Below are positions 2,768-6,547 of a stretch of 32,000 nucleotides of DNA, in pieces. The position numbers and the translations under genes are program-made. Each line of letters begins with the position of its first letter. Positions within the stretch are counted from its first letter, which is position 1. The notes under the pieces were generated by a model that saw only the letters and a list, made by a program, of their open reading frames with translations, ran no database searches and was not told the DNA's origin. Origin of the DNA: Candidatus Heimdallarchaeota archaeon (GTDB lineage: Archaea > Asgardarchaeota > Heimdallarchaeia > JABLTI01); assembly GCA_030614005.1 (NCBI GenBank), contig JAUWKS010000007.1, forward strand, positions 1 to 32,000, in the 5' to 3' direction.

Positions 2768-2914
2768 TTATTTTATAATCACCGAAGCACGTTCCTTTTT
2801 TAAAAATTTGGTAAACCTCCTTTTTGTGACGTTATTCTTTTAGAGCAAATTGACCACAAATATAAAAAACAAACACAATGCATTACGAAACGCTTTATCG
2901 TGGAGTATTTCCTT

Positions 2915-4990
2915 ATGAAAAACCAAATCAAAGAGCACCCAATTCTTCAACCGAAAAAAGAGAAGAAAGTCAAGTTCACCTTTGATGATCAAGAATTAGA
3001 AGGTTTTGTAGGAATGGCTGTTTCATCAGCACTCTTTCTAAATGATATCAAAATCTTTGGTCGACATTATATTGATAACAGCCCTCAGGGAATTTTTTGT
3101 GCAAATGGACAATGCGCTCAATGCACACTAATTATTGATGGTATACCAAAGAAATCTTGTATGACACCCTTAGAAGGCGGGATGACAATCACAAGTTGTG
3201 AAGGTGTACCAACATTACCAACAAGCAATCAAGCAGTAAAAGTTTCTGATATCAAACAACAAGAAATAGATGTACTGATCATTGGAGGAGGACCTGCTGG
3301 ATTGTCTGCAGCAAAAATATTGGGTGAAAAAGGTGTGAAAGTATTACTGGTTGATGATAAGGATAGATTGGGTGGCAAATTAGTTTTACAAACACACAAG
3401 TTTTTCGGTTCATCAGAAGATGTGTATGCAGGAACAAGAGGAATTGAAATTGCAGATATTCTGAGTGAATCTATAAATTCTCTCGACAGTGTTGAGATTT
3501 GGTTGGAAAGCACTGCATTAGCAGTTTACAGTGATAAATTAATTGGTATTTTACGAGCAAATCAAGAATATATTCTGATTAAAACTAATCATCTGTTAGT
3601 TGCTACTGGTGCTAGAGAGAAGATGCTCACTTTTCAAGGAAATACATTGCCAGGTGTATATGGAGCTGGCGCATTTCAAACATTGGTTAATCGTGATTTA
3701 GTAAAAGCTTCTAATAGAATTTTCATCATTGGAGGGGGAAATGTAGGTTTAATTGCGGGATATCATGCTATACAAGCAGGAATCGAAGTTGTTGGTCTTG
3801 TAGAAGCATTACCTTATTGTGGTGGATACAAAGTTCATGAAGATAAACTTCACCGATCAGGTGTTCCTATTTACACATCACATACGATACTCTCAGCAAA
3901 TGGAGATGAAAAAGTTGAATCAGTAACAATTGCAGAATTAGACAAGGAATGGCATCCAAAAACCGGAACAGAAAAAACATACGAATGTGATACTGTTCTT
4001 ATCGCCGTAGGTTTAACTCCTGTTGATGAATGTTTTCAGAAAGCAAAACATTACGGACTAGATGTTTGGACTGCTGGCGATGCGGCTGAAATTGCCGAAG
4101 CATCTGCAGCAATATTTACTGGAAGAATTGCCGGAGTGAAGATACTCGAGTCAATGGGGATTGATACAGGTGAAAATATCGCTGAATTGGAGGAAAAAGC
4201 AACAATAATGAAAAGTCGACCTGCACTACCAAAAGATATTTCGGTTCCTGAAAAAGAAGAAGGCGTATTCCCCATTTTCCATTGTTATCAAGAAATTCCC
4301 TGTGATCCGTGCACTACTGTTTGCCCACACGATCAGATCAAGCTAAATAGTGGATCTATTGTTGCAATTCCATATTTTGTTGGTGATCATGAATGTACAG
4401 GTTGTGGGAAATGTGTTGCAGTTTGTCCAGGATTAGCTATTACATTAGTTGATTACCGTAAAGATAAAGAAAATCCCCTTGTCACACTTCCTATAGAGCT
4501 AGGGAAAAAATCAGTTCAAAAAGGAGACAAAGTATTAGTTATGAGTAACACTGGCGATTTGGGTGAATATGAAGTTCATCGAGTCAGGATTCTCAAAGAT
4601 TATCCAAGAACTGAATTAGTATCAGTTCATTTACCGAAAGATATAGCTAAATATGCAACCGGAATTCGTGTTCAAAGAATTGAAGTGACAGAGCCAATGG
4701 AAATTTATCATAAACCACCATTAGCAGATGAAGCGATTGTTTGTCGGTGTGAACGAGTAACAGCCGGACAAGTTCGGAAGTGGATTAAAAAAGGAGTCAC
4801 AGATATTAACGAGCTGAAAGCGATAACTCGAGCAGGAATGGGAGCTTGCGGAGGCAAAACATGCACTCTACTAATAAATCGTTTATTTAGAGAGGAAGGA
4901 ATTAAAGATATCACTCCAGGAACACCACGCCCATTATTTGTTGAGGTTCCACTAGGAATTTTTGCCCAGACAAAGGAGATGAAAAAATAG
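2915..4990 (+). CDS. Fused FAD/Fe-S oxidoreductase (proline dehydrogenase or sarcosine oxidase alpha-like) with [2Fe-2S], 2x[4Fe-4S] and BFD-like domains
   Basis: CANGQCAQC...C; IIGGGPAGL; ATGARE; CYQEIPCDPCTTVCP and CTGCGKCVAVCP; CRCE...AGMGACGGKTC. ATG 2915 preferred over GTG 2900. Confidence 0.85.
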   Translation: MKNQIKEHPILQPKKEKKVKFTFDDQELEGFVGMAVSSALFLNDIKIFGRHYIDNSPQGIFCANGQCAQCTLIIDGIPKKSCMTPLEGGMTITSCEGVPTLPTSNQAVKVSDIKQQEIDVLIIGGGPAGLSAAKILGEKGVKVLLVDDKDRLGGKLVLQTHKFFGSSEDVYAGTRGIEIADILSESINSLDSVEIWLESTALAVYSDKLIGILRANQEYILIKTNHLLVATGAREKMLTFQGNTLPGVYGAGAFQTLVNRDLVKASNRIFIIGGGNVGLIAGYHAIQAGIEVVGLVEALPYCGGYKVHEDKLHRSGVPIYTSHTILSANGDEKVESVTIAELDKEWHPKTGTEKTYECDTVLIAVGLTPVDECFQKAKHYGLDVWTAGDAAEIAEASAAIFTGRIAGVKILESMGIDTGENIAELEEKATIMKSRPALPKDISVPEKEEGVFPIFHCYQEIPCDPCTTVCPHDQIKLNSGSIVAIPYFVGDHECTGCGKCVAVCPGLAITLVDYRKDKENPLVTLPIELGKKSVQKGDKVLVMSNTGDLGEYEVHRVRILKDYPRTELVSVHLPKDIAKYATGIRVQRIEVTEPMEIYHKPPLADEAIVCRCERVTAGQVRKWIKKGVTDINELKAITRAGMGACGGKTCTLLINRLFREEGIKDITPGTPRPLFVEVPLGIFAQTKEMKK

Positions 4991-6156
4991 TGGTACACTA
5001 CGATGTTATCATCATTGGAGCAGGAAGTGCAGGTGTTCCAGCAACAAGAGAAATAGCAAAAAGTGGTCTAAGCGTTCTTTGTATTGATAGTAAGCCTTCC
5101 CCAGGCCAAGGTGACAATAAACATGCAATTGGTGGTTTAAGAGCTACACATAGTCAAAAATCGAAAATCAAAGTTTGTTTAAGGTCGCTGGAAATTCTTA
5201 GCACGTGGAAGGAAAAGCACGACGAAAATATCGATTGGGTTCAAGGAGGATATCTTTTTGTTGCCTACAGAGAGCAAGAGAAGAAGATCTTTCAAGAAAC
5301 AGTTGCCTTTCAGAAGAAACAAGGATTGGATATTTCTTGGAAAGAAGCAGATGAAGTAAAAGCTCTAGTTCCAGGAATCAATGAGGAGGATCTTCTAGGG
5401 GGAACATATTCACCAAAGGATGGTAATGCAAGTTCTCTACTAACCAACCACGTGTTCTACACCAGTGCATTAGAATATGGAGCAGACTTTCGATTCAAGG
5501 AACCAGTTAAAGATCTAATAATTAGTCGTGGAGAAGTGCAAAGCGTAACTACGACAAAAGGAACTTATAGCGCTGATTTTGTAATAAATGCTGCTGGAGC
5601 ACACGCACAATACATTGCTAATATGGCTGGGTTAATTGTTCCTGTGATACCTGATATGCACGAAGCCGGAATCACAGAGCCTGTAAAACGGTTCTTTTCT
5701 CCAATGATCGTAGATATTCGTCCAAAAGTTAACAAAGCATTTGGCAATTCAAAGAATTATTATTTTTATCAAAATCATTTAGGGCAGATAATATTCTGTA
5801 TTACTCCTGATCCACCGATGTACGGTTTGAGTACAGAAGAAACCAGTATGTTTCTTCCACAAGTAGCTCAACGAATGGTAAACTTACTTCCAAGATTAAC
5901 TAATCTTAAAGTGCGACGAACCTGGAGAGGACGATATCCAAGCACTCCAGATGCAAGTCCAATAGTTGGTCCAGTAAATGGATTAGAGGGATACTTTAAT
6001 CTAGTAGGATTGGGTGGACAAGGATTGATGTTGGGACCAGGATTAGGGGAATTAACTGCAAGATTTGTTAACAATAAACTAACTAGAGAAGATGAAGAAG
6101 TTCTTGAAGAATTTTCCCTATATAGAGAATTTAGCAAAGAAGAACTTTTGAAATAG
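4990..6156 (+). CDS. DAO-family FAD-dependent oxidoreductase (proline dehydrogenase or sarcosine oxidase beta-like)
   Basis: IIGAGSAG, VINAAGAHA, RRTWRG...TPDASPIVG, GLGGQGLMLGP. The start overlaps the upstream stop by 1 nt. Confidence 0.88.
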   Translation: MVHYDVIIIGAGSAGVPATREIAKSGLSVLCIDSKPSPGQGDNKHAIGGLRATHSQKSKIKVCLRSLEILSTWKEKHDENIDWVQGGYLFVAYREQEKKIFQETVAFQKKQGLDISWKEADEVKALVPGINEEDLLGGTYSPKDGNASSLLTNHVFYTSALEYGADFRFKEPVKDLIISRGEVQSVTTTKGTYSADFVINAAGAHAQYIANMAGLIVPVIPDMHEAGITEPVKRFFSPMIVDIRPKVNKAFGNSKNYYFYQNHLGQIIFCITPDPPMYGLSTEETSMFLPQVAQRMVNLLPRLTNLKVRRTWRGRYPSTPDASPIVGPVNGLEGYFNLVGLGGQGLMLGPGLGELTARFVNNKLTREDEEVLEEFSLYREFSKEELLK

Positions 6157-6278
6157 TAAAGTTCTCTCAAATGCTTATCGTACGATCTATTTGGGAGGAC
6201 AATTTAACTCTTAAACAAGCAAAGGAAAAATTTTCGCTCCAAAACAATCTTTCGTATGATTTTTTTTCGAATCGCTTC

Positions 6279-6322
6279 TTATTATATATCAATATTCAGA
6301 ATTATTTGTTGATATATAATAA
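6279..6322. promoter_or_regulatory. 14-bp perfect inverted repeat with TATA-like arms
   Basis: TTATTATATATCAA (6279-6292), 16-nt spacer, TTGATATATAATAA (6309-6322). Confidence 0.55.
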
Positions 6323-6339
6323 TGGAGACACACAAAAAA

Positions 6340-6492
6340 ATGAAAAAAATAAATCCCCGAATTATTTCAATTGCTATGATTTTGTTATCACTACTCTTTG
6401 CTGGCGGATTCGCTGCTAAAGAAATAATTTCTCCAAGTGGTGGTGGAACCACTGGAGCAATTGGCGAGGAAATCAACCCCAACGGTGGATGA
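6340..6492 (+). CDS. Small secreted or membrane-anchored peptide (50 aa)
   Basis: MKKINPRIISIAMILLSLLFAGGFAAKEIISPSGGGTTGAIGEEINPNGG*. Basic n-region, hydrophobic h-region, small-residue c-region. GGAGA at 6324-6328; alternative in-frame ATG at 6322. Shorter than any ORF in the track. Confidence 0.7.
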   Translation: MKKINPRIISIAMILLSLLFAGGFAAKEIISPSGGGTTGAIGEEINPNGG

Positions 6493-6547
6493 AAGATCTC
6501 ACCAATCTTTTCAATATTTTATACTTTTATCGTCAAAAAAGATTTTT

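What the first reader, a model, noticed from the sequence alone, without database searches (positions are those of the whole stretch)
6340..6492. Unannotated 50-aa Phr-like secreted peptide gene
Seen: MKKINPR-IISIAMILLSLLFAGGFAA-KEIISPSGGGTTGAIGEEINPNGG. This is a textbook signal-peptide layout followed by only ~24 polar, Gly-rich residues, with a GGAGA element and its own promoter-like region. It is absent from the ORF track, which shows only overlapping shadow ORFs. Established: Phr, PapR and NprX propeptides of RRNPP systems have this size and layout. Inference: it is the precursor of an extracellular signalling peptide. A membrane-anchored microprotein is the alternative.
Basis: partly seen in the sequence, partly recalled or inferred. 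Interest (0 to 1): 0.72.

Follow-up and report, generated by a model that had tools for sequence, protein, structure and literature searches.

The report
Orphan exported-peptide gene, Heimdall archaeon
The 50-codon ORF is a real, conserved gene for a small exported or membrane-anchored peptide of a family that in these Asgard (Heimdall) archaea normally sits beside a large Lrp-like DNA-binding protein; this copy stands alone, and the family is a credible but untested candidate for peptide signalling in archaea.

Summary
Window 6340-6492(+) encodes a 50-aa peptide with a +3 N-terminus, a 19-residue uncharged stretch and a 24-residue Gly/Pro/acidic tail, behind a GGAGAC ribosome-binding-like site.

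It is a gene, not a chance ORF. It belongs to a family found at 3-10 copies in all 11 genomes searched of its taxonomic family, and nowhere convincingly elsewhere in the class. About three quarters of the 41 copies examined lie directly beside a ~580-600-aa protein ('BIG'). My model shows BIG as a helical N-domain followed by a tandem Lrp/AsnC-like unit.

A complex model of one cognate pair places the peptide's last 13 residues between the two ligand-binding domains (score 0.62; best control 0.02).

The window copy is an orphan. It sits in a ~343-nt cassette between an FAD oxidoreductase gene and a TPR gene. The cassette is missing at the same site in the nearest genome compared and replaced in another strain. 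The copy is still under purifying selection (dN/dS 0.14 against a second orphan locus).

The TPR neighbour is not the family's usual partner, and this is not an RRNPP member. Export, cleavage and expression are untested.

This scan had already described the two BIG-linked copies on other contigs of this genome.

The parts
6340..6492 (+). Coding sequence of the 50-aa peptide (stop included). Residues 1-7 form a +3 n-region with the family motif KKINP(K/R). Residues 8-26 are uncharged and hydrophobic, with AGG at 21-23. Residues 27-50 form a Gly/Pro/acidic tail ending NPNGG.
   Evidence: family alignments; dN/dS 0.14 against L072; layout statistics.
6324..6329 (+). Shine-Dalgarno-like GGAGAC, 11-16 nt before the ATG.
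   Evidence: an SD-like motif at -20..-6 in 23/23 type-A copies against 0.2 expected after shuffling.
6282..6289 (+). TATA-like box TTATATAT at -58..-51. This is the position where most type-A copies carry cTTTTAATA or TTTAAATA. Inferred promoter.
   Evidence: 13/23 by a strict pattern against 1.7 expected after shuffling. Inference only: no transcript data.
6295..6302 (+). TTCAGAAT, the local form of a TTYN(1-2)GAAW element between the TATA box and the start region. It is shared with the closest BIG-linked copies. Possible operator.
   Evidence: 7/23 type-A copies, 0/17 of types B/C, 0.6 expected; also present in L072. Inference.
6309..6314 (+). TTGATA element at -31..-26, conserved in type-A upstream regions.
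   Evidence: 17/23 against 0.8 expected; 0/17 in types B/C.
6279..6322 (.). Perfect 14-nt inverted repeat (6279-6292 and 6309-6322, 16 nt apart) that spans the TATA-like box and the TTGATA element.
   Evidence: Not conserved in L072, so its meaning is open.
6192..6534 (+). Variable cassette holding the promoter, the ORF and the 3' spacer. It is absent from the syntenic site of G010 and replaced by 384 other letters in a ~97% identical strain. The part from 6309 to 6533 is homologous to BIG-linked paralogue loci.
   Evidence: intergenic 391 nt here against 116 nt in G010:C15; joint 6191/6535 in run X3.
6493..6547 (+). 3' spacer with T-runs between the peptide stop and the stop of the convergent TPR gene.
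   Evidence: 80% identical in L072. A terminator role is inferred.
6548..8866 (-). Convergent neighbour: a 772-aa TPR protein. It occupies the place that BIG takes in type-A loci but is unrelated to BIG and is not the family's usual partner.
   Evidence: Pfam TPR_12 E 3e-46; no similarity to BIG; its orthologue in G010:C15 has no peptide gene beside it.

Best explanation
Window 6340-6492 is a functional gene for a small pro-peptide of a family restricted to one family of Heimdallarchaeia.

Proposed mechanism:
1. The peptide is inserted into or passed through the membrane by its N-terminal signal-like segment. The N-terminus stays inside and the 24-residue tail faces outside.
2. The tail is probably released by cleavage near AGG/FAA.
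3. Its C-terminal ~13 residues act as the ligand of a cytoplasmic tandem Lrp/AsnC-like HTH protein ('BIG'). Binding is at the cleft between the two RAM-type domains, after re-uptake.
4. BIG then changes transcription.

This copy has been separated from any BIG gene. It is a type-A peptide cassette copied (promoter, ORF and 3' spacer up to the BIG stop codon) into the gap between an FAD oxidoreductase gene and a TPR gene. It must therefore act in trans. It could act on a receptor elsewhere in the genome (none of type A is in the 90%-complete assembly), on the two other BIG proteins by cross-talk, or on neighbouring strains.

Shown here: the gene is real, belongs to the family, is linked at family level to BIG, and is under purifying selection; BIG has the described fold; the genome has uptake systems.

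Modelled only: peptide-BIG binding.

Inferred: export, cleavage, re-import and regulation.
For: Gene reality:
- The family is conserved in 11/11 genomes of the taxonomic family, always as short frames.
- The start-codon position is shared and SD-like motifs are present in 23/23 type-A copies.
- dN/dS is 0.07-0.2 against the closest relatives.
- dN 0.10 / dS 0.75 (16 synonymous and 7 non-synonymous codon changes) against L072, which has the same DAO-peptide-TPR arrangement. The upstream intergenic DNA there is only 56% identical.
- Three G009 paralogues, one BIG-linked and two orphans, are ~78% identical in DNA yet encode the same or nearly the same peptide (dN/dS 0.02-0.08).

Partner:
- About 33 of 41 copies directly flank a BIG gene, and tail type, gene arrangement and BIG subfamily go together.
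- The close ENA/JGI relatives carrying MKKINPR in L069, L070 and L074, and the JGI type-A relative L075 (58% identical), are convergent with BIG C-termini.
- BIG and the peptide share the same narrow distribution.

BIG fold:
- AF2 model with pLDDT 88.6.
- Best PDB matches are the tandem Lrp-like NirDL (4czc, 4ch7; E 4e-7) and Lrp/AsnC regulators (2dbb, 2ia0, 2p6t).
- The nearest Atlas cluster carries HTH_AsnC (0.85; a lead only).

Binding model: score 0.62 with best control 0.02. That mark was reached by 58 of 80 solved complexes and 2 of 110 mismatched pairs. The runs agree in at least 56% of contacts and partner pLDDT is at least 46. Peptide residues 38-44 and 46-50 touch both RAM-like domains.

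Layout: +3 n-region in 39/40 copies; a 19-residue uncharged stretch in 28/40; (-3,-1)-compatible sites after xGG in 37/40.

Uptake is possible: at least 9 SBP_bac_5 oligopeptide-binding proteins in the genome.
Against: - There is no evidence of transcription, translation, cleavage or secretion.
- The uniform 19-residue hydrophobic stretch is long for a signal peptide h-region and fits a permanent membrane anchor.
- No type-A BIG, and none of its usual neighbour genes, is in this assembly, so this copy has no identified receptor.
- The complex was modelled for the G010 pair, not for the window's peptide. The partner's own fold is uncertain (pLDDT under 50), and my own alignments make the calibration only rough.
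- RAM domains are known (my knowledge) to bind amino acids, not peptides.
- NirDL-like proteins are enzymes, so a tandem Lrp fold does not prove regulation.
- Linkage of peptide type with BIG subfamily is expected from shared descent alone.
Confidence: 0.5

Rival explanations
1. The peptide is a permanently membrane-anchored microprotein (signal anchor, N-in/C-out) that is never released. It would work at the membrane, for example as a small surface or envelope component, or as a tether or modulator of a membrane complex. The link to BIG would then be regulatory only: BIG controls its expression rather than binding it.
For: The uncharged stretch is 19 residues in 28/40 copies and is flanked by +3 on the N side and a conserved Lys on the C side. 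The invariant KKINP motif suggests a cytoplasmic contact beyond mere charge. Different palindromes upstream of different subfamilies fit BIG acting on the peptide promoter. Orphan copies work without an adjacent partner.
Against: The controlled complex model places the extracellular-side tail in BIG's RAM cleft. The conserved xGG and small residues at -3/-1 look like a peptidase site. Tails are short, Gly/Pro/acidic and diversify by subfamily, as ligands do.
Confidence: 0.25
2. In this lineage the peptide signals to the convergent 772-aa TPR protein, which would be a new receptor recruited in place of BIG. This is the peptide-TPR pair idea of the first reader's sibling note.
For: The TPR stop lies 55 nt from the peptide stop, exactly where BIG's stop lies in type-A loci. 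The DAO-peptide-TPR arrangement is kept in a second, ~82-85% identical lineage, L072. TPR domains bind peptides in RRNPP receptors (established knowledge).
Against: The TPR orthologue in G010:C15 (83% nt identity) has no peptide gene, and the G004 orthologue shows none either. No other family member lies beside a TPR gene. The TPR protein has no HTH and no similarity to BIG. Convergent neighbours share no promoter. No binding test was run.
Confidence: 0.08
3. The peptide is the precursor of a secreted antimicrobial or modified peptide (bacteriocin- or RiPP-like). BIG would serve as its regulator, or its winged helix would act as a leader-recognition element.
For: The N-terminal part is conserved and the C-terminal part variable. 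There are several copies per genome and Gly-rich tails ending in GG. A replaceable cassette and polymorphism between strains are seen.
Against: There are no Cys/Ser/Thr-rich cores (0 Cys in 858 tail residues). No modifying enzyme, protease-transporter or immunity gene recurs next to the copies. BIG matches no enzyme family in Pfam or NCBIfam. The tails are acidic, unlike most membrane-active peptides.
Confidence: 0.07
4. The window copy is a stranded, functionless duplicate on its way to decay.
For: It has no adjacent BIG and no type-A BIG in the assembly. The cassette is absent or replaced in close relatives. One orphan elsewhere (G005:C105) is truncated. The only difference from the 99.98% identical contig L068 is a Pro-to-Gln change inside the ORF.
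Against: dN/dS is 0.14 between the two orphan lineages, with an intact frame, start, SD and promoter-like elements in both, while the DNA upstream has drifted to 56% identity.
Confidence: 0.05

Closest known systems
RRNPP-type propeptide/receptor signalling of Bacillota and their phages (Phr/Rap, PapR/PlcR, NprX/NprR, AimP/AimR; also SHP/Rgg)
   Same: - A 40-60-aa ORF with a basic N-terminus and a hydrophobic export segment.
- The C-terminal end is the part predicted to bind the receptor.
- The gene usually lies next to a cytoplasmic HTH protein.
- There are many diversified pairs per genome, plus unlinked extra peptide genes.
- Oligopeptide uptake proteins are present.
   Different: - The organism is an archaeon (Heimdallarchaeia).
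- The receptor candidate is a tandem Lrp/AsnC-like protein with a helical N-domain, not a TPR protein.
- There is no sequence homology on either side.
- This particular copy has no receptor gene beside it.
- Secretion, processing and import are untested.
Lrp/AsnC ('feast/famine') regulators and the fused tandem Lrp-like NirDL/AhbAB siroheme decarboxylases
   Same: BIG residues ~215-560 fold as two HTH + RAM units. Its best structural matches are 4czc/4ch7 and 2dbb, 2ia0 and 2p6t. The modelled ligand site lies between the RAM domains, where Lrp proteins bind effectors.
   Different: BIG has an extra ~210-residue N-domain. It reaches no Pfam or NCBIfam cut-off for these families. Its proposed ligand is a peptide rather than an amino acid or tetrapyrrole. 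This comparison concerns the family's partner, which is not encoded in the window.
The two BIG-linked copies of the same family in this genome, already described by this scan (e1-5394788 on C112, e1-5394606 on C79)
   Same: They share the N-terminal motif, layout and taxonomic range. I confirmed the pairing and the Lrp-like fold independently, and obtained a passing complex model on a different subfamily (~20% identical).
   Different: The window copy belongs to subfamily A, is unlinked to BIG, and sits in a replaceable cassette beside a TPR gene.

Membership tests
RRNPP propeptide/receptor systems | Small ORF with an N-terminal Sec-type signal peptide that is cleaved | tested here: inconclusive
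   The layout fits (+3 n-region, hydrophobic stretch, small residues at -3/-1 after G23 or A25). The stretch is 19 residues long, however, and no signal-peptide predictor or experiment was available.
RRNPP propeptide/receptor systems | Adjacent cognate receptor with a TPR-type peptide-binding domain (usually with an N-terminal HTH) | tested here: not met
   The family's conserved neighbour is a tandem Lrp/AsnC-like protein. The TPR gene beside this copy lacks an HTH and is not a conserved partner.
RRNPP propeptide/receptor systems | Mature signal derives from the C-terminal part of the propeptide and binds the receptor inside the cell | tested here: inconclusive
   The complex model contacts peptide residues 38-50 (score 0.62, best control 0.02; 58/80 solved and 2/110 mismatched pairs reach that mark). 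It is a model only, run on the G010 pair.
RRNPP propeptide/receptor systems | Re-import through an oligopeptide permease | not testable with these tools
   At least 9 SBP_bac_5 proteins are in the genome. This shows only that uptake is possible.
Heimdallarchaeial KKINPK peptide family (partner of BIG) | N-terminal M/L/V-KK-(I/L/V)-N-P-(K/R) motif, ~19-residue uncharged stretch with a GG pair, and a 16-24-residue Gly/Pro/acidic tail | tested here: met
   Profile E 2.9e-24; alignments; statistics.
Heimdallarchaeial KKINPK peptide family (partner of BIG) | Gene directly beside a BIG (tandem Lrp-like) gene | tested here: not met
   The neighbours are DAO and TPR genes. The only BIG genes in the genome are on C112 and C79. 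Other orphans exist in G004, G005 and G009.
Archaeal type IV pilin-like proteins (class III signal peptide) | Short basic leader ending in [KR]-[GA] immediately before the hydrophobic segment (prepilin peptidase site) | tested here: not met
   Read directly from the sequence: the leader ends NP(K/R) followed by I/V/L, with no G/A at -1. The total length of 50 aa leaves no pilin body.
RiPP / bacteriocin precursors | Neighbouring modifying enzyme, leader protease-transporter or immunity gene; a core rich in modifiable residues | tested here: not met
   No such gene recurs beside the copies. BIG matches no enzyme family. No Cys in any tail.

The most novel reading that the evidence does not exclude
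Heimdall-group Asgard archaea run a peptide-based cell-cell signalling network with a receptor type unknown in bacteria: tandem RAM domains of an Lrp-like protein reading a re-imported C-terminal peptide. Unlinked pro-peptide genes such as this one sit in replaceable cassettes and work like pherotype alleles or cross-talk signals between strains.
Probability: 0.3. Interest if true: 0.9.

Novelty: new variant of a known kind. Interest (0 to 1): 0.7.

Why it matters
No literature searched here describes a peptide pheromone system in archaea; to my knowledge none is established. A conserved, diversifying peptide plus cytoplasmic receptor-regulator module in the archaeal group closest to eukaryotes would open archaeal social behaviour to experiment. 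It would also show a second, independent way to build such a system, using RAM domains instead of TPRs.

This copy adds three specific points. The peptide gene can be kept under selection away from its receptor gene. It moves as a ~225-340-nt cassette. The same chromosomal site carries different contents in close strains. These are the features expected of signal polymorphism.

The system is directly testable with short synthetic peptides and one recombinant protein.

Tried and rejected
- Pfam and NCBIfam on the peptide: no family.
- Rfam on 6000-6700: only a chance-level CrcZ match, E 0.86.
- ESM Atlas for the peptide: best score 0.76, below any useful level.
- BLASTP of the TPR neighbour against BIG: no similarity.
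- The look-up of sequencing runs: no RNA holder listed, so expression could not be examined.
- Read laying used contigs only, so it gives no transcript ends or depth-based inference. The 384 replacing letters in X3 could not be read.
- Metagenome scan with a TPR-end DNA pattern: 0 matches.
- Single-protein related-loci scan: one further BIG-linked relative only.
- Search for the usual type-A neighbourhood genes (97-aa wHTH, AAA_18, GNAT, MBL, 357-aa protein) in the own genome: none found. I cannot tell whether the type-A receptor locus is truly absent or unassembled.
- Contig L069 (same sample and similar coverage as the window-identical contig) could not be assigned to this organism.
- The 9-nt direct repeat GATTTTTTT (6258 and 6541) was considered as a target-site duplication. 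I rejected it as low-complexity, and it overlaps the TPR stop.
- A Mantel-type co-divergence test of peptide against BIG was not run, because physical linkage alone would produce the signal.
- Paper searches (Asgard + quorum sensing + peptide; archaea + Lrp + signal peptide; RRNPP + archaea) found no description of such a system.

Full report
**1. The observation**

GGAGAC lies at 6324-6329. The default ORF list shows only overlapping shadow frames.

The peptide has three parts:
- a +3 N-terminus (residues 1-7);
- a 19-residue uncharged stretch (8-26) containing AGG;
- a 24-residue Gly/Pro/acidic tail.

Neither Pfam, NCBIfam nor Rfam recognises the ORF or the region.

**2. It is a gene and belongs to a family**

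The same genome (3.6 Mb, 126 contigs, 90% complete; the window is contig C34) holds two paralogues, on C112 and C79. They share the N-terminal motif KKINP(K/R) and the hydrophobic stretch but have different tails.

A profile of the three finds 3-10 short open frames (44-80 aa) in each of the 10 other genomes of the genus and in the one genome of the sister genus. In the 29 genomes of other families of the class the best E is 0.005.

Across 40 members:
- the start codon (ATG, GTG or TTG) falls at the same aligned position;
- an SD-like GGAG/GGTG lies 6-20 nt upstream in 23/23 members of the window's subfamily, against 0.2 expected after shuffling;
- substitutions concentrate at third codon positions, with dN/dS mostly 0.06-0.5.

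Earlier notes of this scan identify the genome as Heimdallarchaeia. Public homologues of the partner protein are labelled Asgard or Heimdallarchaeota MAGs.

**3. The family's usual partner**

I examined 41 family ORFs in fetched loci. About 33 lie directly next to a 575-600-aa protein that I call BIG. Three arrangements recur, and each goes with its own tail type and BIG subfamily:

| Type | Arrangement | Gap | Tail |
|---|---|---|---|
| A | convergent | 20-40 nt between stops | ...APSGGG...(D/N)PxGG or GQGDAGTGGGG |
| B | divergent | ~330 nt | QEGxGDPTLxPxPP...GGG |
| C | co-directional or divergent | varies | ends in DTG + hydrophobic residue |

The window's peptide is type A.

BIG has only sub-threshold HTH hits near residues 215-260 in Pfam and NCBIfam. 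Every source calls it 'hypothetical protein'.

I modelled a type-A BIG (G010:C45) from a 28-sequence alignment, with mean pLDDT 88.6. The model shows:
- a helical N-domain (1-210);
- an HTH (217-259) followed by a beta-alpha-beta-beta-alpha-beta domain (261-364);
- a second HTH-like region (406-466) followed by a second such domain (470-560).

Foldseek's best PDB matches are the fused tandem Lrp-like siroheme decarboxylase NirDL (4czc, 4ch7; E 4e-7), followed by Lrp/AsnC regulators (2dbb, 7fby, 2ia0, 2p6t, 4pcq). The nearest ESM-Atlas cluster carries HTH_AsnC (0.85; a lead only).

BIG occurs in 11/11 genomes of the taxonomic family at 2-6 copies. Among the other 68 genomes of the class searched, strong matches occur in only one (G065), plus two weak partial hits at E 3e-12 and 3e-7. 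This is the same narrow range as the peptide.

**4. Binding model**

I submitted the G010:C45 BIG with residues 21-50 of its own convergent peptide, both as alignments.
- The score was 0.62 and the best of three controls was 0.02.
- That mark was reached by 58 of 80 solved complexes and 2 of 110 mismatched pairs. The counts hold only roughly, because my own alignments were used.
- The runs agree in at least 56% of contacts. Partner pLDDT is at least 46, so its own fold is uncertain.
- The confident contacts are peptide residues 38-44 and 46-50, the last 13 residues.
- They touch BIG residues 265, 306-307, 322 and 357 (first RAM-like domain), 419-457, and 475-560 (second RAM-like domain).

The model supports binding; it does not show it. 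It is a second, independent subfamily (~20% identity) to the pair that an earlier agent of this scan reports having modelled.

**5. This copy is an orphan in a cassette**

The window's neighbours are a two-gene FAD/Fe-S oxidoreductase pair (2900-6156; DAO E 7e-56) and a convergent 772-aa TPR protein (6548-8866). The TPR protein is unrelated to BIG.

The genome has only two BIG genes, on C112 and C79, and neither is type A. The genes that usually surround type-A loci are absent from the assembly too.

Comparison with other lineages:
- **G010:C15 (83% nucleotide identity).** The DAO and TPR genes are 116 nt apart with no peptide gene, against 391 nt here.
- **Paralogue homology.** Homology to the BIG-linked type-A loci of G010:C45 spans window 6309-6533. 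That covers the proximal promoter, the ORF and the 3' spacer up to the position of the BIG stop codon. Synteny with G010:C15 resumes at 6535.
- **Run X3 (another study).** A contig ~97% identical in both flanks carries 384 other letters in place of 6192-6534. A second contig carries the ORF at ~96% identity in another context.
- **L072 (ENA).** This contig shows the same DAO-peptide-TPR order at ~82-85% identity.

Between L072 and the window, the ORF has 16 synonymous and 7 non-synonymous codon changes (dN 0.10, dS 0.75, ratio 0.14). The 144 nt upstream of the promoter region are only 56% identical. The orphan has therefore been kept as a coding gene since these lineages split.

A 99.98% identical contig from another assembly (L068) differs by one base, a Pro-to-Gln change in the ORF. 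One change allows no inference.

Orphans recur elsewhere:
- G009 has one BIG-linked and two unlinked copies that share a ~260-nt unit at 78% identity yet encode the same or nearly the same peptide (dN/dS 0.02-0.08).
- G004 and G005 share an orphan beside a 703-aa protein, and one tandem copy there is truncated.
- The window's close ENA relatives with the MKKINPR start in L069, L070 and L074, and the more distant JGI type-A relative L075 (58% identical), are convergent with BIG C-termini.

**6. Expression signals (inferred)**

Type-A upstream regions share four elements:
- a TATA-like box near -58..-50;
- in the closest subgroups, a TTYN(1-2)GAAW element near -45;
- TTGAWA near -30;
- the SD-like site.

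The window has all four, at 6282-6289, 6295-6302, 6309-6314 and 6324-6329.

A perfect 14-nt inverted repeat (6279-6292 and 6309-6322) spans the first and third elements, but it is not conserved in L072. Other subfamilies carry different palindromes upstream, as expected if each BIG type reads its own site. No RNA run holds this DNA.

**7. Signal peptide or anchor?**

Family-wide figures:
- The n-region is +3 in 39/40 copies.
- The uncharged stretch is 19 residues in 28/40.
- (-3,-1)-compatible cleavage positions are most consistent after xGG (37/40; after G23 here) and two residues later (32/40; after A25 here).
- Tails are 16-24 residues in nearly all copies. They are 25% Gly, 15% acidic and 10% Pro, with no Cys.

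This fits a Sec signal peptide of archaeal length and equally a type-II anchor. I could not run a predictor.

The positive N-terminus puts the tail outside, while BIG has no export signal. If the two bind, the tail must therefore return to the cytoplasm. The genome encodes at least 9 oligopeptide-type binding proteins, which makes uptake possible and shows nothing more.

**8. Reading**

My best explanation, at 0.5 for the whole chain, is as follows. The ORF encodes an exported pro-peptide whose C-terminal part is the ligand of tandem Lrp-like regulators. This copy is an unlinked type-A cassette acting in trans.

Rivals:
- a permanent membrane microprotein that BIG merely regulates (0.25);
- the TPR neighbour as a recruited receptor (0.08);
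- an antimicrobial or RiPP-like precursor (0.07);
- a decaying relic (0.05, largely refuted).

**9. Comparison with what is known**

The system works like RRNPP or Rgg peptide signalling but is not a member of those families. The receptor fold differs, there is no homology on either side, and the host is an archaeon.

Searches of the paper library found no description of a peptide pheromone system in Asgard or other archaea.

The scan itself had already described the two BIG-linked copies on other contigs of this genome (e1-5394788, e1-5394606). I reached the pairing before reading those notes. I then tested the Lrp-like fold and the binding idea independently.

The sibling note on this window (e1-5383081) proposes the TPR protein as receptor. 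My comparative data argue against that as the family rule but cannot exclude it for this lineage.

Noticed in passing
window 6192-6534: In public run X3, a contig ~97% identical to both flanking genes has 384 other letters in place of this 343-nt stretch. The right junction (6534/6535) is also where synteny with G010:C15 resumes and where homology to BIG-linked paralogue loci ends. It looks like a replaceable cassette site; the alternative content is unknown.
   Followed up: partly
window 2900-6156: Two overlapping genes (stop and start share 4990). The first is a 696-aa protein with 2Fe-2S, FAD/NAD, 4Fe-4S and BFD-like domains. The second is a 388-aa DAO-type flavoprotein. The layout resembles the two-subunit proline/opine/sarcosine-type dehydrogenases of Thermococcales (my recollection, not tested).
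   Followed up: no
window 6548-8866: A 772-aa protein with ~7 strong TPRs (TPR_12 E 3e-46, TPR_MalT) and a ~140-residue non-TPR C-terminal domain. It has several paralogues in the genus (partial DNA matches on other contigs).
   Followed up: no
L024-L027 (G005:C69, G004:C408, G002:C288, G006:C106): A syntenic locus in four genomes has one BIG gene flanked on both sides by peptide genes facing it, lying next to PlsY and DegV genes. Within a locus the two peptides are similar but not identical.
   Followed up: partly
G065:C25:5104-6891 and G065:C58:716-2446: A genome assigned to a different family of the class carries two BIG genes at E 1e-215 and 2e-185, while 27 other genomes of that family have none. 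This could be misbinned contigs or a transfer.
   Followed up: no
L069 (ENA ERZ4220366 NODE_35886, 2387 nt): This contig comes from the same sample and has similar coverage (3.1x against 3.4x) as the window-identical contig L068. It carries a type-A BIG C-terminus with its own peptide and is not in the G000 assembly. It may be the missing type-A receptor locus of this organism, or it may belong to a co-occurring relative.
   Followed up: partly
L033 3748-4019 (G005:C105) and L057 (G004:C295): A second kind of orphan site: peptide genes convergent with a 703-aa protein, about 24 nt from its stop. In G005 there are two in tandem, one of them truncated at the N-terminus.
   Followed up: no
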